Assembly (NCBI GenBank): GCA_963931105.1
Contig: OZ007004.1
Location: 622,973-686,972, forward strand
Source: an uncultured Peptococcaceae bacterium
GTDB lineage: Bacteria; Bacillota; Peptococcia; Peptococcales; Peptococcaceae
Direction: 5' to 3'
DNA: 64,000 bases
Below, in pieces: positions 17,266 through 64,000 of this stretch. A model generated the notes under the pieces. The model had not been told where the DNA came from, made no database searches, and was given only the letters and a program-made list of their open reading frames with translations. Each line of letters begins with the position of its first letter. Position 1 is the stretch's first letter. The position numbers were made by a program, and so were the translations under genes.

Positions 17266-18006
17266 TTATTTATAGCTCACAACCTCAATGCCACGCGCTT
17301 CTGCCATGGCTGTCCAGTGTGCGAGCTGTTCCTCGCTCGGCGTGGCGAAGCGGGGATCCGGCAGCGCCAGCCCGAGCTTTTCGTATTTTGCTTCGCCGTA
17401 GCGATGATACGGCAAAAATTCCAGCTTGGCGCGAATCTGATTCTTCTCGAAAAAATCGAAGACGCGCGTCATTGTCTCGTCGTCGGCATTGACGCCGACG
17501 ATCGTGGGAATGCGCACAACGAGCGGCAAGCCCTCGTCACTGGCGCGGCGGATGTTCTGCAGGATCAGCGCATTGTCGACGCCGGTGAATGCGTGATGCT
17601 GGCGCGGATCGATGTGCTTGATATCGATGAAAATCGTGTCCATCTTGCGCAGGGTTGGCGCCATCTGCGCGTAGTCAAAATACCCGCAGGTTTCGATCGC
17701 CAGCGAAAATCCTTCGTCGTAGAGCGCGTCCACCATTTCCCGCAGGAAATCTGGCTGGGCTGTGGCTTCGCCGCCGGAAAAAGTGACGCCGCCGCCAGAC
17801 TGGCGAAAGAAGATCGCCTGATGGCGCAGCTCAGCAAGAATGTCTTCCGTTTCTGCCCAATGGGTCATGGCGTTGCGCCGCGTCTGCCCCTCGGGATTGG
17901 CGCACCAGGCACAGCGCAGCGGACAGCCCGCCATGAACACAATGGTGCGGATGCCGTCGCCGTCGTTGACCGAAAAATGCTGCAGTTGCATGATATAACC
18001 GCCCAT
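17266..18006 (-). CDS. glycyl-radical enzyme activating protein (radical SAM, short PflA-like form)
   Basis: GCPLRCAWCANPE CX3CX2C cluster motif. 246 aa with no ferredoxin-like insertion after the motif. Confidence 0.9.
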   Translation of the reverse strand: MGGYIMQLQHFSVNDGDGIRTIVFMAGCPLRCAWCANPEGQTRRNAMTHWAETEDILAELRHQAIFFRQSGGGVTFSGGEATAQPDFLREMVDALYDEGFSLAIETCGYFDYAQMAPTLRKMDTIFIDIKHIDPRQHHAFTGVDNALILQNIRRASDEGLPLVVRIPTIVGVNADDETMTRVFDFFEKNQIRAKLEFLPYHRYGEAKYEKLGLALPDPRFATPSEEQLAHWTAMAEARGIEVVSYK

Positions 18007-38100: not shown

Positions 38101-38646
38101 CTAAAGATGCGCGATCGCCACTTCCGCCGTTACCGAGGGATTGTGGCGCACCGGATCAAAATAATCCGCCGTCGTGAAAAGAAACTGACACTTCACACGA
38201 TCGCCCGCTCTGTAGCAGGCGCTGTCCGCCGGCACATCCACCGTCGCCACAAGCCGCCCACCAAGCTCCTCCAGCGTGCGACGACTGGCAGCATTATCCG
38301 GGTTGCAGGTGATGATACACTCACCCAGCCCCAACTCGTAAGCAAAATGCAGGAGCAGCCGCGTCGCCTTGAGCGCATAGTGATTGCCGCGATGCGGCCT
38401 GTAAACACGATAGCCCACATGTCCGGAATAGGCGATCTCTGGATGCATTCCCACGCGCAGATCGCAATGTCCCAGCTCGCGGCGCATCTCCGTCGCATCA
38501 ACGATCTTGAAAAAATAGCTCGGCAGCTCGCCAACATACGCCGATCCCCACTGATACTGTCGCAGCAACAGCTGGATCTCGCCGTCGCTGAGATGCGACG
38601 TGTCCTGTGCGCGCAACGGATGCAGCAGATTTTTGAAAAATGCCAT
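38101..38646 (-). CDS. GNAT family N-acetyltransferase
   Basis: 181 aa; ...GYRVYRPHRGNHYALKATRLLLHFAYE... Has its own TGGTACAAT extended -10 at ~38672-38680. Confidence 0.75.
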   Translation of the reverse strand: MAFFKNLLHPLRAQDTSHLSDGEIQLLLRQYQWGSAYVGELPSYFFKIVDATEMRRELGHCDLRVGMHPEIAYSGHVGYRVYRPHRGNHYALKATRLLLHFAYELGLGECIITCNPDNAASRRTLEELGGRLVATVDVPADSACYRAGDRVKCQFLFTTADYFDPVRHNPSVTAEVAIAHL

Positions 38647-38701
38647 GGAATCGTCCCCCCGATCCGTGTCGTTATCTGCATTGTACCATAAAATCAGGCA
38701 T

Positions 38702-38738
38702 AAAAAAACAGGCGCCAGGAGGAAAGCTGGGCGCCTGT
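38702..38738 (-). terminator. rho-independent terminator of the RNA candidate
   Basis: CAGGCGCC..loop..GGCGCCUG followed by U7 on the minus strand. Confidence 0.85.
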
Positions 38739-39160
38739 GAACTAAGGAGGACCAGGCGAGAGCAGCCTGGCGTGTGAAACCGCTTTTTGACCGTCGGAAA
38801 TGATCCTTCTGTGCACAAAAGGCTCGGGCGTATGCATGACGGTTGCACCTGGGCAGCCCGGTTTTCCGCGATCACGGATGGCTGAGAAGCATCGCAGGTC
38901 CTCATTATGGCTATGGAATACAGCGGCGGCTGGACACCGCGGCATTCGTACAGAGAAGCGCCTGGCGACAGCGTCTGGAGCTACCGTCGCCACAGCGCGA
39001 TTCTCTTTGTCCTACAATTGCAACCTTCTCATACAATCTCCTTCCGTAGGAAACGCAGCTGCAGCTCCAACCGGATCCGTGAACGGTGTCCCCTCCTATC
39101 ACAGAGCGCCGGCCTCTATAGAGTGCTGCGTCAACAGAGGTGCGGTTCGTCGTCCTCTGT
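38702..39160 (-). ncRNA. unclassified ~460-nt structured RNA candidate (independent transcription unit)
   Basis: No credible ORF on either strand. Consensus promoter upstream and a strong terminator downstream. Multiple perfect 6-10 bp helices. Confidence 0.5.
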
Positions 39161-39167
39161 TAAACCT

Positions 39168-39196
39168 ATTATAGTACTATGTTATGCCCGTTGCAA
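39168..39196 (-). promoter_or_regulatory. sigma70 promoter of the RNA candidate
   Basis: TTGCAA-N17-TATAAT read on the minus strand. Confidence 0.6.
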
Positions 39197-39354
39197 GCAT
39201 CTTTTTTCCTACATATTCAGTATCGTTTTGCAATCTCCTGCCAGCAACCGGAAAATACGGCAACAGCTTTCCTTATTATAAGGAAGAAAAACGTCACATT
39301 CACACCAAAAGCCGCATCAGCACGCGGTTTTCCAGCGCTTTGCACTGCGCGCGA

Positions 39355-39675
39355 TCAATGCCCACTCGTTGCCTTGAGACCGATGATGCCCACGAGAAGC
39401 AGGCACACAAAAATGGCGCGCAGAGGAAACATCGCTTCCTTAAAAAGCAGCATGCCAACGACGACAGACCCCAGCGCGCCAATGCCTGTCCAGATCGCGT
39501 AGGCGGTGCCCATCGGCAGCGTTTTCATGACATGGCTGAGCAGCCCAAAGCTCACAAGCATGCCAGCAATGGTCAGCGCCGTGTAGAAATGCTGCGTAAA
39601 ACCGTGGGAGAGTTTCATACACGTCGCCCAGAAAACCTCAAACAATCCCGCAATAAGAAGATAGACCCAAGCCAT
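39355..39675 (-). CDS. sugE: SMR family transporter, SugE/Gdx (guanidinium exporter)-like
   Basis: MAWVYLLIAGLFEVFWATCMKLS...GTAYAIWTGIGALG; 106 aa, 4 TM, conserved Glu in TM1. Confidence 0.9.
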   Translation of the reverse strand: MAWVYLLIAGLFEVFWATCMKLSHGFTQHFYTALTIAGMLVSFGLLSHVMKTLPMGTAYAIWTGIGALGSVVVGMLLFKEAMFPLRAIFVCLLLVGIIGLKATSGH

Positions 39676-39793
39676 AGATTTTTCTCCTTTCTCTCTGCAC
39701 AAAAGAAAAAGCGCCCCCTGCGCTGTATCTTCTACGGCCTAACGATACAGCGCCGAAGCGCTCCGTGTTCACCCGGCGGCGAACAATTATTCT
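39676..39793 (-). promoter_or_regulatory. attenuator/riboswitch-like 5' leader of sugE
   Basis: Mutually exclusive helices: AGCGC-UUCG-GCGCU (39762-39749), a 10-bp GCGCUGUAUC/GAUACAGCGC helix (39753-39720), and the terminator AGCGC-AGGGG-GCGCU plus U-run (39724-39701). Confidence 0.5.
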
Positions 39794-39799
39794 GGATCC

Positions 39800-39828
39800 A
39801 TCTTAGCAAAAGCGTGATCACCTGTCAA
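39800..39828 (-). promoter_or_regulatory. sigma70 promoter of sugE
   Basis: TTGACA-N17-TAAGAT on the minus strand. Confidence 0.55.
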
Positions 39829-39865: not shown

Positions 39866-39894
39866 TTGTCACGCGCGCAATGTCATGCTATAAT
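39866..39894 (+). promoter_or_regulatory. sigma70 promoter of the SCIFF gene
   Basis: TTGTCA-N17-TATAAT with an extended TG. Confidence 0.6.
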
Positions 39895-39929
39895 AATATA
39901 GTAAATCTATGCTGAAAGGGGTATTGGAA

Positions 39930-40070
39930 ATGTCCAAACATATCAAAACTATCAGCGCTCAGAAACTTCAGAAGACCCTGAAGACTGGCGGCTGCGGCGA
40001 ATGCCAGACCTCTTGCCAATCCGCTTGCAAAACCAGCTGCACGGTTGGCAACCAAGTATGCAAGCACTAA
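39930..40070 (+). CDS. scfA: SCIFF (six-cysteines-in-forty-five) ranthipeptide precursor
   Basis: MSKHIKTISAQKLQKTLKTGGCGECQTSCQSACKTSCTVGNQVCKH. The core GGCGECQTSCQSACKTSCTVGNQ matches the SCIFF family as I remember it. RBS AAAGGGG. Absent from the supplied ORF track (<60 aa). Confidence 0.9.
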   Translation: MSKHIKTISAQKLQKTLKTGGCGECQTSCQSACKTSCTVGNQVCKH

Positions 40071-40080
40071 TCCCATCCCG

Positions 40081-40113
40081 AGACCTGCCTGTGGCGCGGG
40101 TCTTTTCTTTTTC
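40081..40113 (+). terminator. rho-independent terminator (first of a tandem pair)
   Basis: AGACCUGC-loop-GCGGGUCU followed by UUUCUUUUU. Confidence 0.75.
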
Positions 40114-40124
40114 AAATGCAGTTG

Positions 40125-40160
40125 AGATCGCTCGAGGGTTGTAGGGGGCGATCTTTTTTA
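40125..40160 (+). terminator. rho-independent terminator (second of the tandem pair)
   Basis: AGAUCGC...GCGAUCU followed by UUUUUU. Confidence 0.65.
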
Positions 40161-40316
40161 TTCCCAGTGGCTCAGTCAGAATATGACAATCCGTTGAACG
40201 ACGTTCATCAAAATTTTTAATGTCCCGCCATCTGGTATTCTAAAATTATTGTGCTATAATAATTATTTGCCATTATAAAGTAGTAGAAAAAAGTTTTTGA
40301 ATGGAGGTTGACATCT

Positions 40317-41696
40317 ATGGCAGAAGTTTCAAAACGAACACGTACAGCCATCTACCTGATGATGCTGGGCAGCTTCCTCGGTTCCATCAACCAGACAATC
40401 CTCAGTCCTGCTCTGCCAAGCATCATGGCCGATCTGCATATTGACGCCTCGGCCGGTCAGTGGTTGACGACCATCTTCCTCTTGGTCAACGGGATCATGA
40501 TCCCTTGCACCGCGTATCTTATGGCGCGCTTCACGACGCGTCAGCTCTATCTCGCAGCAATGACGCTTTTCGCTGTCGGCACGCTGCTCTGCGGTCTGGC
40601 GCACACCTTTGTCCTCTTGCTTCTTGCGCGTGTGTTACAGGCGATGGGCTTTGGCGTATTAATGCCACTCCTTTCCGGGACCGTCCTCATGGTGTATCCA
40701 CCAAACCAGCGCGGTAAAGCGATGGGCATGATCGGGCTCGTCTTTTCGATCGCACCAGCCATCGGCCCTTCGATCGCAGGCTTTGTCATCGATGCCTACG
40801 GCTGGAATGTCGTCTTCCTCGGGCTGGTTCCGCTGATCGTTATCGATATCATCCTCAGCGCCGTCATCATGCCAAACACCGGCGAAACCCATCACATCGA
40901 TCTCGATAAAACATCCGTCCTGCTCTCGACGCTGGGCTTCGGCGGTCTGCTTTACGGCTTCAGCTCCGTCGGCAGCTACGGCTGGACCTCGGCGCACGTC
41001 TATGTACCCCTGCTCGCTGGCGCGCTGATCACTTATTTCTTCATCAAACGCCAGAGCAAGCTTGAAACACCGCTCCTGCGTTTTGACGCATTCAAGAGCC
41101 AGCGCTTCACGATCGGTCTCATCATCGGGATGATCATCAATGCCGCCCTCCTTTTCGGTGGCGTGCTCACGCCAATCTATCTGCAGGATATCCACGGCTA
41201 CAGCGTACTCTGGTCCGCACTCATCATGCTGCCTGCTTCGCTCCTCGCAGCCGCGCTAAACCCAGTCGTCGGCAGTCTCTACGACAAGATCGGCGCACGT
41301 CCGCTGGGTATTCTCGGGCTGATCCTTCTGACGATCGGTTCCGGCTGCTACCTTTTCTTCCGTGCACAGACAGAAACCTGGGTGCTCGTCACCCTCTACA
41401 CCATCCGTATCCTCGGTATCAACCTCGTGATGATGCCAATCAATACCTGGAGCATGAGCGACTTCACCGGCGAGATCATTCCTCACGCCAACGCCGTGTT
41501 TGCAACGCTGCGTCAGATCGCCGGCTCTGTCGGTACAGCAATCTTCGTTTCGATCTATTCGGTCGCATCCTACACATCCGATTCTCTCACCGGTATCCAT
41601 GCAGCCTTTGGGGCATCTGCCGTGATGATGATCTGCGCAGTCATCCTGGCGATCCTCAAGATCGAAAAGAAACCCAAAAAATCTTGGGAGCGATGA
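40317..41696 (+). CDS. MFS transporter, DHA2 (EmrB/QacA-like) family
   Basis: 14 TMS. GGAGG RBS lies before ATG 40317. Extended -10 TGCTATAAT at 40252-40260. Confidence 0.88.
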   Translation: MAEVSKRTRTAIYLMMLGSFLGSINQTILSPALPSIMADLHIDASAGQWLTTIFLLVNGIMIPCTAYLMARFTTRQLYLAAMTLFAVGTLLCGLAHTFVLLLLARVLQAMGFGVLMPLLSGTVLMVYPPNQRGKAMGMIGLVFSIAPAIGPSIAGFVIDAYGWNVVFLGLVPLIVIDIILSAVIMPNTGETHHIDLDKTSVLLSTLGFGGLLYGFSSVGSYGWTSAHVYVPLLAGALITYFFIKRQSKLETPLLRFDAFKSQRFTIGLIIGMIINAALLFGGVLTPIYLQDIHGYSVLWSALIMLPASLLAAALNPVVGSLYDKIGARPLGILGLILLTIGSGCYLFFRAQTETWVLVTLYTIRILGINLVMMPINTWSMSDFTGEIIPHANAVFATLRQIAGSVGTAIFVSIYSVASYTSDSLTGIHAAFGASAVMMICAVILAILKIEKKPKKSWER

Positions 41697-42624: not shown

Positions 42625-44370
42625 ATGTCCAACAACCGATTCCGCGACTATGCGCACACCGTGCTCGGACAGCTGCCGACGCGCACCGCCCACGATTTTT
42701 TCAAAAACCTCAAAGCCAACTGGTATTTTCCGCTCTCAGCGCTCGCCTTTTTCTGGCCGCAGGTGCAGTGGCTTGTCGAACCAGAGATCTGGCACATCAG
42801 CCTCGCCATCACTTTTATCTGCATGCTTTTCATCAGCGGTCAGCTGCCAAACCTGTGGAACGAAACCCGCGCCCACGGCTGGTTCGTGCAAATGTGGACA
42901 CTCCTTTCTGCGTGCGGCATCCTGCTGCGCAGTCAGCGCTTCGCATATGACGCCCTCGCCAGCAACGCCAGCTTCCAGGCACTCGTTGCAGACAGCAGCG
43001 CCAACATGGCGCGTTTCGTCAGTGTCGCACTGGCCCTTGGCGGCTTTCTCTTCATCTACATCTGCCTCTGCTGGTTCTGGACCCGTCTCGGCGAAATGCT
43101 GCGCGACTGTCTGCTCCTTTCCAAACTCACACGCTGGGAATGGGCACTCTACAGTTTGCTCGCTCTGGCAGAGATCTTCTGCATGGCGCGCATCTTTTTT
43201 GCTACCACCGCTTTCTACACCAACGACCCAAGCGGCTACGACATCATCTACACAAGCGATTCTGGCGCCCTTGTCAACAACATGGGCTATCTCTTCATCA
43301 CCTTCCCGGAAAACGACCTGCGCCAACCACTTTTCGCTCTCTTCGCCGCACCATTTCTCGGCGCACCATATTTCCTCGGGCAGATCCTCCAGCTTTCTCC
43401 GACTTCACAGGCCATCCTCGTCGACGCCGTGCAGATCGTCATGCTCGTTCTCGCCAATCTGCTCCTGACGCGCCTGCTCGATCTCAAGCCGCTCGAACGC
43501 GCCGCGCTCATGCTCATCACAAGCTTTACCTACGCTCAGATGCTCGGCGTACTGATGATGGAACAGTACATCGTCGCTTATTTCTGGCTCGCCCTCACAC
43601 TCGCCCTCCTCGCCGCAAACCGTGAAGCCATCAGCAGCAATATAACGGATGGGTATAAACCGCATTTTATCGCCCTTTACGGCGCTGGCAGCACCTTGCT
43701 CACCAGTCTTTTCTGGACACCGCTCCATTCTGCCCATTCACCATTCCGCGATTTTCGCAAATGGTTTCTCGACATGCTCAAATGTGGCTTAGGCTTCATC
43801 GCGCTGCTTTTCGTTTTCGGTCGCTACGATGTTTTTGCAACCCTCATCGACAAGATCGAATCACTCGATAAATTTACCGGCAAAGCCGTTCCGCTCAGCG
43901 GACGCATCGAGCAATACACAGCCTTCATCCACGACATCTTTCTCGCGCCAGCCGCCAGCGCCGGACTCACCGGCACAGAACCAGCCACCCACATTTCCTG
44001 GATGCTCGCCCCCGTGGAGCAGCTCAATCTCGTCGGGCTCATCATCCTTGCCCTCGCGCTCGTGAGCCTTCTGCTCAACCGCCACAGCCGCGCCGCCAGC
44101 ATGGCCGGCTGCTGGATCCTTTTCTCCCTCGCCCTCCTCGTCGGACTCGGCTGGGGAACAAAAGAAAACGGGCTCATCCTCTACGCCCTCTACTTCGGCT
44201 GGGCATACGTCCTTCTCCTTTTCCAGCTGCTCCTGAAACTCACCCGCTACCTCCAAGCCACCTGGCTCCTCGTCCTCTTCAGCCTGCTCATCACCGCCCT
44301 CCTCGCCGGTGTCAACATCCCAGGCATCCTCGAGATCATTCATTTCGGGCTGGAATATTTTGCGAGATAA
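42625..44370 (+). CDS. large polytopic membrane protein, function unknown
   Basis: 581 aa, >12 hydrophobic segments. No family recognised. Confidence 0.6.
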   Translation: MSNNRFRDYAHTVLGQLPTRTAHDFFKNLKANWYFPLSALAFFWPQVQWLVEPEIWHISLAITFICMLFISGQLPNLWNETRAHGWFVQMWTLLSACGILLRSQRFAYDALASNASFQALVADSSANMARFVSVALALGGFLFIYICLCWFWTRLGEMLRDCLLLSKLTRWEWALYSLLALAEIFCMARIFFATTAFYTNDPSGYDIIYTSDSGALVNNMGYLFITFPENDLRQPLFALFAAPFLGAPYFLGQILQLSPTSQAILVDAVQIVMLVLANLLLTRLLDLKPLERAALMLITSFTYAQMLGVLMMEQYIVAYFWLALTLALLAANREAISSNITDGYKPHFIALYGAGSTLLTSLFWTPLHSAHSPFRDFRKWFLDMLKCGLGFIALLFVFGRYDVFATLIDKIESLDKFTGKAVPLSGRIEQYTAFIHDIFLAPAASAGLTGTEPATHISWMLAPVEQLNLVGLIILALALVSLLLNRHSRAASMAGCWILFSLALLVGLGWGTKENGLILYALYFGWAYVLLLFQLLLKLTRYLQATWLLVLFSLLITALLAGVNIPGILEIIHFGLEYFAR

Positions 44371-44376
44371 AAACAA

Positions 44377-44426
44377 AACCGCCGTCGTTGCAACCACAGA
44401 GGATCGCAACGACGGCGGTTATTTGT
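44377..44426. terminator. bidirectional rho-independent terminator
   Basis: 15-bp stem AACCGCCGUCGUUGC/GCAACGACGGCGGUU. Confidence 0.85.
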
Positions 44427-44442
44427 ATATTTGCGCCATACT

Positions 44443-63446: not shown

Positions 63447-64000
63447 CTAGTGCCTGATCACCGTCACTGGGAAATCCGATCCGCTGATCCAGCCTTCAAT
63501 GCGATCGAGATCGTCGTCGGAAAGGCTCGGATCGCCGTCGATGGCATAATCCATGCCGAGCTGCGTGTATTTATTGACGCCGAGCTTGTGATACGGCAGC
63601 AGATCGATCCCCTTGAAATTTTTCAGATCCTTATACGGCGTGAGAAAATCGATGACGGCGCGAATCTCCGGCTCGCTGTCGTTGATCCCTTTCAGGAGCG
63701 GCATCCGCACCTTCACATTGTGGCGGCGCTGGAGCAGCGTCTCGAGATTGTCGAGGATCATCTCGTTGCGCACGCCGGTGAGTTCTGCGTGGCGCTCCGG
63801 ATCCATGTGCTTGATGTCGAAAAGAAAGAGATCGACGACTTCTGCAAATCTGAGCAGCACATCTTTTTTCGCGTAGCCGCAGGTTTCAATGGCGGTGTGC
63901 AAGCCTTCGCGTTTGCACGCTTCCAGAAGATTGATCGCCGCTTCCGGCTGAGAGGTGACCTCGCCGCCGGAAAGCGTCACACCGCCGCCAGACTGCTCGT
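63447..64000 (-). CDS. glycyl-radical enzyme activating protein, C-terminal part (gene continues beyond the window end)
   Basis: ...TLSGGEVTSQPE...ETCGYAKKD...DIKHMDPERH...LPYHKLGVNKY, typical of the GRE-AE C-terminal half. Confidence 0.88.
   Translation of the reverse strand, partial: EQSGGGVTLSGGEVTSQPEAAINLLEACKREGLHTAIETCGYAKKDVLLRFAEVVDLFLFDIKHMDPERHAELTGVRNEMILDNLETLLQRRHNVKVRMPLLKGINDSEPEIRAVIDFLTPYKDLKNFKGIDLLPYHKLGVNKYTQLGMDYAIDGDPSLSDDDLDRIEGWISGSDFPVTVIRH

What the first reader, a model, noticed from the sequence alone, without database searches (positions are those of the whole stretch)
39866..40160. SCIFF ranthipeptide precursor gene missed by the ORF track and lacking its usual adjacent radical-SAM maturase
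A 46-codon gene (39930-40070) encodes MSKHIKTISAQKLQKTLKTGGCGECQTSCQSACKTSCTVGNQVCKH. This is the six-cysteine SCIFF precursor pattern.

In the genomes I know, scfA is immediately followed by the SCIFF radical-SAM maturase scfB. Here the gene is monocistronic. It has a TTGTCA-N17-TATAAT promoter and two tandem terminators. It is flanked by sugE on the opposite strand and by an MFS gene.

The only radical-SAM genes in the 64 kb are two glycyl-radical activases, about 22 kb and 23 kb away.
Basis: partly seen in the sequence, partly recalled or inferred. Interest (0 to 1): 0.6.

Follow-up and report, generated by a model that had tools for sequence, protein, structure and literature searches.

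The report
SCIFF peptide gene, maturase encoded elsewhere
This is a genuine, well-conserved gene for the known clostridial six-cysteine peptide SCIFF; its modifying enzyme is not missing but sits about 567 kb away, an arrangement shared by the whole family Peptococcaceae and by other lineages, so the finding is ordinary.

Summary
Window 39930-40070 (+) encodes a 46-aa peptide that passes both curated SCIFF models (TIGR03973 84.6 bits, cut-off 50; PF13165 86.8, cut-off 27). It has a near-consensus extended -10 promoter, a Shine-Dalgarno site and two tandem terminator hairpins. No peptide-maturase radical-SAM gene lies in the window.

The "orphan" reading does not hold. The genome (one contig, 2.63 Mb, Peptococcaceae) has exactly one scfA and one true scfB. 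The scfB scores 599 bits on TIGR03974 (cut-off 425) and 479 bits against CteB (PDB 5WGG). It lies about 567 kb away, in a serS-scfB-pheA row.

The separation is a family trait:
- Among 38 Peptococcaceae genomes, 0 of 34 with both genes have them adjacent.
- In three sister families of the same order, 16 of 16 have scfA directly upstream of scfB.
- The ScfB tree places the split on a single branch.
- scfB keeps its ancestral M23-peptidase neighbour in some genera, so scfA was the gene that moved.

Independent splits occur in Filifactoraceae/Proteocatella (16 split, 9 adjacent) and in other Clostridia. scfA carries its own promoter and terminator even where scfB follows it. The scan has noted stand-alone SCIFF genes on other DNA before.

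The parts
39866..39894 (+). scfA promoter. The -35 is TTGTCA (39866-39871), followed by a 17-nt spacer and an extended -10 TGcTATAAT (39886-39894).
   Evidence: The consensus scan gives 11/12 matches with a TG extension. CTTGyCA and TGCTATAAT are conserved in all 11 species of the genus, while DNA upstream of the -35 is not alignable.
39914..39921 (+). Shine-Dalgarno site GAAAGGGG, 8 nt before the start codon.
   Evidence: Read from the sequence. AAAGGGG is invariant in the 11 species of the genus.
39930..40070 (+). scfA, the 46-aa SCIFF ranthipeptide precursor. The leader carries the KHIKTI motif. The core is GCGECQTSCQSACKTSCTVGNQVCKH with six Cys at positions 22, 25, 29, 33, 37 and 44.
   Evidence: TIGR03973 84.6 bits (cut-off 50) and PF13165 86.8 bits (cut-off 27). 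Against the other ten species of the genus there are 6-21 synonymous and 0-2 non-synonymous codon changes. The core is invariant apart from one V/A position across the family.
40080..40114 (+). Intrinsic terminator 1: 9-bp stem, 7-nt loop, then a UUUUCUUUUU tail.
   Evidence: Found by the scan and by folding. The sequence is conserved in 10 of 11 species of the genus, and the eleventh has a different hairpin at the same place.
40124..40161 (+). Intrinsic terminator 2: 10-bp stem, 12-nt loop, then UUUUUU.
   Evidence: Found by folding. A hairpin plus T-run at this position recurs in the genus with different stem sequences.
39355..39702 (-). SMR family SugE/Gdx-like exporter gene, transcribed divergently from scfA. 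The likely start is ATG 39675. It is a neighbour, not part of the system.
   Evidence: PF00893 98.8 bits. NF008512 107 bits, below its 126 cut-off. The gene is absent from this position in G006, a species of the same genus.
40308..41696 (+). DHA2-family MFS efflux permease gene with its own extended -10 and an upstream palindrome. It is a neighbour conserved only within the genus.
   Evidence: TIGR00711 323 bits, cut-off 230. It lies next to scfA in G000, G005 and G006 only. The MFS gene next to scfB in Peptococcus simiae is a 25%-identical paralogue.
38101..38646 (-). GNAT acetyltransferase gene, a neighbour found near scfA in two genera (g1 and g6).
   Evidence: PF13302 48.4 bits. Synteny is shown.
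17266..18006 (-). Glycyl-radical-enzyme activase, one of the two radical-SAM genes in the window. It is unrelated to SCIFF.
   Evidence: PF04055 hit. TIGR02494 246.9 bits, cut-off 174.
63447..64000 (-). CutD-type glycyl-radical-enzyme activase, cut by the window end. It is unrelated to SCIFF.
   Evidence: PF04055 hit. TIGR04395 524.9 bits, cut-off 360, on the full ORF fetched from the genome.

Best explanation
The gene is scfA, the precursor of the SCIFF ranthipeptide. It is a self-contained promoter-gene-terminator cassette.

Proposed mechanism:
1. It is transcribed from its own strong sigma-70-type extended -10 promoter as a short monocistronic mRNA of roughly 200-260 nt, ended by two tandem intrinsic terminators.
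2. The mRNA is translated into a 46-residue peptide.
3. The peptide is modified in trans by the genome's single ScfB, a radical-SAM/SPASM enzyme homologous to CteB. scfB is encoded about 567 kb away, 15 nt after serS and overlapping the start of pheA.
4. ScfB should bind the conserved KHIKTI leader through its N-terminal RRE domain. It should then install thioether cross-link(s) between core Cys and Thr residues. Cys33, Thr35 and Thr38 here correspond to Cys32, Thr34 and Thr37 of CteA.

The physical separation is old. One relocation of the scfA cassette occurred at the base of Peptococcaceae, while scfB stayed at the ancestral locus. The move needed no regulatory rewiring, because scfA already has its own promoter and terminator where it is still adjacent to scfB.

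Shown here: gene identity, signals and their conservation, purifying selection, a single scfA and a single scfB, and the phylogenetic distribution. Inferred: transcription, modification in trans, and the physiological role.
For: - Family membership of scfA.
- One scfB in the genome: TIGR03974 599 bits against a cut-off of 425. It aligns end to end with CteB (PDB 5WGG/5WHY, 479 bits, residues 5-450), including the N-terminal domain, the CNLRCGYC motif and SPASM. It scores well below the NCBIfam 'not_ScfB' orphan model (491 against 855).
- No SPASM-type enzyme lies in the window.
- Promoter, SD and terminators are present and conserved across 11 species.
- Purifying selection: 6-21 synonymous against 0-2 non-synonymous codon changes.
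- Both genes are retained in 34 of 38 family genomes although never adjacent.
- In sister families 16 of 16 are adjacent.
- In the ScfB tree the family is monophyletic (100/99) and nested in the order clade.
- The scfB-M23/LysM/G5 peptidase linkage is kept in outgroups and in genera g2, g4 and g5.
- Outgroup scfA genes also have a TGnTATAAT promoter and a terminator hairpin before scfB.
- Background on CteA/CteB chemistry comes from PMC8326336 and PMC8172795.
Against:
- Modification in trans rests on co-occurrence and homology only.
- The 95-nt terminator region as a whole does not fold better than shuffles (z = -0.14). The terminators therefore rest on the stem-plus-T-run pattern and on conservation.
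- Two family genomes show scfA but no scfB: G056 (95% complete) and G058 (68%). These may be assembly gaps or real losses.
Confidence: 0.9

Rival explanations
1. True orphan. The precursor is no longer a substrate of ScfB. It either works unmodified (for example as a Cys-rich metal- or redox-active peptide) or is a conserved relic, and ScfB serves another substrate.
For: The two genes are unlinked and sit in unrelated operon contexts. Two family genomes have scfA but no detectable scfB.
Against: ScfB is intact and scores as an equivalog, not as the 'not_ScfB' orphan type. There is exactly one scfA and one scfB per genome in nearly all 38 family genomes. The leader motif and all six Cys and the acceptor Thr residues are invariant. 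The genomes lacking scfB are fragmented MAGs, and in one (G054) a scfB fragment sits at a contig end.
Confidence: 0.06
2. The peptide is matured by a different, locally encoded enzyme, such as one of the radical-SAM proteins in the window or the neighbouring GNAT.
For: Two radical-SAM genes lie 22-23 kb away. A GNAT gene lies about 1.3 kb upstream and is also near scfA in a second genus.
Against: Both radical-SAM genes are glycyl-radical-enzyme activases above their curated cut-offs, each beside its own system. They lack SPASM/RRE domains, and no weaker TIGR03974 hit falls in the window. The neighbours of scfA differ between genera of the family.
Confidence: 0.02
3. The separation is a recent rearrangement or an assembly artefact peculiar to this genome.
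For: None was found beyond the bare fact of separation.
Against: The genome is a single 2.63-Mb contig. The same GNAT-scfA-MFS context occurs in other species of the genus. All 34 informative family genomes are split. No repeats or compositional break flank the gene.
Confidence: 0.01

Closest known systems
CteA/CteB (thermocellin) of Acetivibrio (Clostridium) thermocellus and Tte1186a/Tte1186 of Caldanaerobacter subterraneus: the characterised SCIFF precursor-maturase pairs (PDB 5WGG/5WHY; PMC8326336, PMC8172795)
   Same: The peptide has the same length class, the same KHIKT leader motif and the same CxxCxxxCxxxCxxxC(x6)C core, with the donor Cys and acceptor Thr residues in place. The enzyme aligns with CteB over 446 residues at 479 bits.
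   Different: Precursor and enzyme genes are about 567 kb apart rather than adjacent. scfB is embedded in a serS-scfB-pheA-murB row. No biochemical data exist for this pair.
Adjacent scfA-scfB loci of the sister families in the same order (G025-G040)
   Same: They are orthologous by the ScfB tree, with a near-identical core peptide. scfA has its own TGnTATAAT promoter and a terminator hairpin in both layouts.
   Different: There scfB follows scfA after about 80-340 nt and is followed by an M23/LysM/G5 peptidase gene. Here only the scfB-peptidase half of that layout survives, and only in some genera of the family.
Split scfA/scfB genomes in Filifactoraceae/Proteocatella and other Clostridia
   Same: There is one scfA and one scfB per genome, unlinked. 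One complete genome has them 1.08 Mb apart.
   Different: These are independent events on other branches of the ScfB tree. That family is mixed: 16 split, 9 adjacent, and some genomes have tandem scfA duplicates.
RiPP systems with precursors encoded away from the enzyme, such as the prochlorosins (ProcA peptides and ProcM); this example is from my own knowledge and was not tested here
   Same: A leader-guided enzyme acts on precursor(s) encoded elsewhere in the chromosome.
   Different: Those systems have many diverse precursors per enzyme and lanthionine chemistry. Here there is a single, extremely conserved precursor.

Membership tests
SCIFF precursor (TIGR03973 / PF13165) | Scores above the curated cut-offs of the family models | tested here: met
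   TIGR03973 84.6 bits against 50 and PF13165 86.8 bits against 27. Control genomes give 0 of 14 hits.
SCIFF precursor (TIGR03973 / PF13165) | About 45 residues, with six Cys in the C-terminal half in the spacing CxxCxxxCxxxCxxxCx6C | tested here: met
   The peptide is 46 aa with Cys at 22, 25, 29, 33, 37 and 44.
SCIFF precursor (TIGR03973 / PF13165) | Conserved N-terminal leader motif (K-H/R-I-K/Q-T-I/L) | tested here: met
   The leader is MSKHIKTIS. The same motif occurs in 32 adjacent-type precursors from other Clostridia.
SCIFF precursor (TIGR03973 / PF13165) | Gene immediately upstream of the ScfB maturase gene (the usual genomic context) | tested here: not met
   scfB is about 567 kb away. 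This is a context feature, not part of the sequence model. It also fails in all 34 informative Peptococcaceae genomes and in 16 of 25 Filifactoraceae genomes.
SCIFF precursor (TIGR03973 / PF13165) | Co-occurrence with a TIGR03974 maturase in the same genome | tested here: met
   The own genome has one scfA and one scfB.
SCIFF precursor (TIGR03973 / PF13165) | The mature product carries radical-SAM-installed thioether cross-link(s) | not testable with these tools
   This needs LC-MS/MS of the native or co-expressed peptide.
ScfB / CteB maturase (TIGR03974) | Scores above the equivalog cut-off and is not captured by the 'not_ScfB' exception model | tested here: met
   TIGR03974 599.3 bits against 425. 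NF040492 491 bits against 855.
ScfB / CteB maturase (TIGR03974) | CX3CX2C radical-SAM motif, C-terminal SPASM domain and N-terminal RRE-type domain | tested here: met
   CNLRCGYC is present. TIGR04085 SPASM scores 68.3 bits against 27. The alignment to CteB covers residues 5-450, including the N-terminal domain.

The most novel reading that the evidence does not exclude
Precursor and enzyme have become functionally as well as physically uncoupled. On this reading scfA has a role that does not strictly need ScfB, for example as a Cys-rich redox or metal peptide or as a signal. ScfB, now sitting in a serS-pheA-murB housekeeping row, would serve growth-linked functions. This would explain three things: unlinking arose repeatedly (Peptococcaceae, Filifactoraceae and others), it is stably kept, and some genomes appear to keep scfA without scfB.
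Probability: 0.1. Interest if true: 0.5.

Novelty: new member of a known kind. Interest (0 to 1): 0.17.

Why it matters
It matters little for this locus. The gene is a standard SCIFF precursor that public annotation already holds, and its maturase is present.

The modest value is comparative. The data show that the textbook scfA-scfB adjacency is not universal. Genome-mining tools that look for the precursor next to the radical-SAM enzyme would miss or mis-score SCIFF in whole families. The precursor behaves as an autonomous transcription unit in every layout examined here, adjacent or split. This fits the view that SCIFF is a conserved physiological system rather than a mobile antibiotic cluster (PMC8326336).

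Tried and rejected
- Second scfA or scfA-scfB pair in the genome: none.
- Relic of scfA upstream of scfB in family members: tblastn at E<=10 gave only noise.
- MFS exporter as a dedicated SCIFF partner: the link is limited to one genus. The MFS gene beside scfB in Peptococcus simiae is only 25% identical, so it is a paralogue.
- Mobile-element traces around scfA: no meaningful direct or inverted repeats, and no compositional island beyond AT-richer intergenic DNA.
- Structured RNA in 36-45 kb: only two sub-threshold chance hits. The one on 40076-40161 merely mirrors the two terminators.
- Literature on unlinked scfA/scfB: two full-text searches and four papers gave background but no statement on unlinked loci. 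The founding paper (Haft and Basu 2011) is not held.
- The 700-nt gap between the GNAT and sugE genes: no Pfam domain, single copy.

Full report
**Observation**

ATG 39930 opens a 46-codon frame ending at TAA 40068-40070, which encodes MSKHIKTISAQKLQKTLKTGGCGECQTSCQSACKTSCTVGNQVCKH. The longer 53-aa frame from ATG 39909 is unlikely to be used. It has no Shine-Dalgarno site and lies only about 8 nt from the predicted transcription start. GAAAGGGG (39914-39921) lies 8 nt before ATG 39930 and is invariant in relatives.

The peptide passes both curated SCIFF models: TIGR03973 at 84.6 bits (cut-off 50) and PF13165 at 86.8 bits (cut-off 27). The same model finds nothing in 14 control genomes.

The promoter is TTGTCA-17-TATAAT, preceded by TG (11 of 12 matches). 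The first terminator was found by the scan. Folding shows both hairpins, 40080-40104 and 40124-40155, each followed by a U-run. The 95-nt stretch as a whole does not fold better than shuffles (z = -0.14). The case for the terminators therefore rests on the stem-plus-U-run pattern and on conservation, described below.

The neighbours are an SMR/SugE-type gene on the opposite strand and a DHA2 MFS gene downstream. The only radical-SAM genes in the window are two glycyl-radical-enzyme activases, at 17266-18006 and from 63447 on. The factual part of the finding is confirmed in every detail.

**Where the maturase is**

The window lies in a single-contig genome of 2,633,207 bp. A whole-genome search finds exactly one scfA, which is this gene. 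It finds exactly one protein above the ScfB cut-off, at genome position 1,229,544-1,230,932 (599 bits, cut-off 425). This is about 567 kb from scfA.

That protein aligns with the crystallised SCIFF maturase CteB (PDB 5WGG/5WHY) over residues 5-450 at 479 bits. It has the CNLRCGYC radical-SAM motif and a SPASM domain. It scores far below the NCBIfam exception model for orphan ScfB-like enzymes (491 against 855).

It starts 15 nt after serS, and its stop overlaps the start of a prephenate dehydratase gene. In other species of the genus the row reads serA-like, serS, scfB, pheA, murB.

**Is the separation peculiar to this genome?**

It is not. Names returned with related loci place the organism in Peptococcaceae; one genus of the family is Peptococcus, represented by P. 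simiae. The results across relatives are:

| Group | Result |
|---|---|
| Peptococcaceae genomes held (38) | 34 have both genes; none has them adjacent |
| Same contig within the family | only this genome (567 kb apart) and G006 (56 kb apart) |
| Named Peptococcaceae scfB loci with 2.5-kb flanks (31) | no scfA on either strand |
| Three sister families of the same order | 16 of 16 genomes have scfA 80-340 nt upstream of scfB |

The scfA flanks that I fetched contain no scfB.

A maximum-likelihood tree of ScfB makes the family monophyletic (support 100/99). It is nested within the order clade (100/99), next to the adjacent-type families. One event at the base of the family therefore explains the pattern.

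**Which gene moved**

In the outgroups scfB is followed by a LysM/G5/M23 peptidase gene. That linkage survives in three genera of the family, g2, g4 and g5. scfB therefore stayed in place and scfA left. No relic of scfA remains upstream of scfB.

The new surroundings of scfA differ between genera. It is GNAT-(sugE)-scfA-MFS in this genus, a GNAT gene lies nearby in Peptococcus, and a nitroreductase gene lies nearby in three other genera.

**Not unique to this family**

Among 49 scfB loci from other Clostridia, 32 have scfA directly upstream and 17 do not. In four of those genomes scfA is present elsewhere.

In the family that holds Proteocatella, 16 genomes are split and 9 are adjacent. One complete genome has the genes 1.08 Mb apart, and several have tandem scfA copies. 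These lineages sit on other branches of the ScfB tree, so unlinking has happened several times.

**How it most likely works**

Across the 11 species of the genus, the following are conserved: the -35 (CTTGyCA), the extended -10 (TGCTATAAT), the SD and terminator 1. DNA upstream of the -35 cannot be aligned. Terminator 2 keeps a hairpin plus T-run with different stem sequences.

The coding sequence shows 6-21 synonymous but only 0-2 non-synonymous codon changes against the other ten species of the genus. The Cys/Thr core is invariant across the family except for one V/A position.

The adjacent-type outgroups also have a TGnTATAAT promoter before scfA and a terminator hairpin between scfA and scfB. 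scfA is thus an autonomous cassette in every layout examined, and moving it needed no rewiring.

I infer that the peptide is made from a short monocistronic mRNA and cross-linked in trans by ScfB. The enzyme should recognise the conserved KHIKTI leader. Cys33, Thr35 and Thr38 correspond to the Cys32, Thr34 and Thr37 positions reported for CteA (PMC8326336, PMC8172795).

Transcription, modification and biological role are inferred, not shown.

**Rivals**

- A true orphan, or ScfB-independent function, cannot be excluded. It is disfavoured by the intact equivalog-grade ScfB, the one-to-one co-retention of the two genes, and the invariant donor and acceptor residues. Two fragmented family genomes show scfA without scfB, and a third has a scfB fragment at a contig end. 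I left this open.
- Maturation by a local enzyme is unlikely. The two radical-SAM genes in the window are glycyl-radical-enzyme activases, and the neighbours of scfA vary between genera.
- A recent rearrangement or an assembly artefact is refuted.

**Comparison with the known, and novelty**

The gene is a regular member of the SCIFF family, and the exact protein is already in NCBI nr. Cluster relatives of the enzyme are annotated as SCIFF maturase of Peptococcaceae.

The only non-textbook aspect is gene order. That turns out to be a lineage-wide and recurrent variant. I found no paper in the held library that states this, but the search was not exhaustive and the founding paper is not held.

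Earlier notes of this scan describe stand-alone SCIFF genes, and post-precursor hairpins, in other genomes. I treated them as leads only.

**Verdict**

The implied anomaly is explained, and the interest is low.

Noticed in passing
window 40195-40207 and 40252-40260: A perfect palindrome TGAACgacGTTCA lies about 100 nt upstream of the DHA2 MFS gene, followed by an extended -10 (TGcTATAAT). TGAAC...GTTCA-like sequence recurs at the same place in at least five other species of the genus (alignment). It is probably an operator for a repressor of the efflux gene.
   Followed up: partly
window 38647-39354: About 700 nt between the GNAT and sugE genes have no Pfam-matching ORF and no Rfam match, and occur as a single copy in the genome. 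In a species of the same genus (G005) the same gap is only about 100 nt. The content is unexplained.
   Followed up: partly
window 39676-39828 (- strand): The sugE leader has a TTGACA-17-TAAGAT promoter and a terminator-like hairpin (39710-39724) just before the gene. No guanidine riboswitch or other Rfam family matches at E<=0.1.
   Followed up: partly
L001:194-3728 (genome C1:1228264-1231798): scfB starts 15 nt after serS, and its stop overlaps the start of pheA. In the genus the row is serA-like, serS, scfB, pheA, murB. A peptide maturase is thus embedded among housekeeping genes.
   Followed up: partly
G041-G086 (Filifactoraceae/Proteocatella genomes), for example G078:C1:1271782-1273116 and 2351390-2351518: This is a second family where scfA and scfB are unlinked in many members (16 split, 9 adjacent). 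One complete genome has them 1.08 Mb apart. Several adjacent-type members carry two tandem scfA copies.
   Followed up: partly
G056, G058 (family genomes, genus g3): scfA is present but no scfB is detectable even at E<=1e-15. G056 is 95% complete in 240 contigs and G058 is 68% complete. This may be an assembly gap or a real loss of the maturase with the precursor retained.
   Followed up: partly
window 44358-44440 (- strand): A long near-perfect hairpin of about 83 nt lies between two convergent genes. It gave a chance sub-threshold match to a microRNA model (28 bits against 90). It is probably a bidirectional terminator.
   Followed up: no
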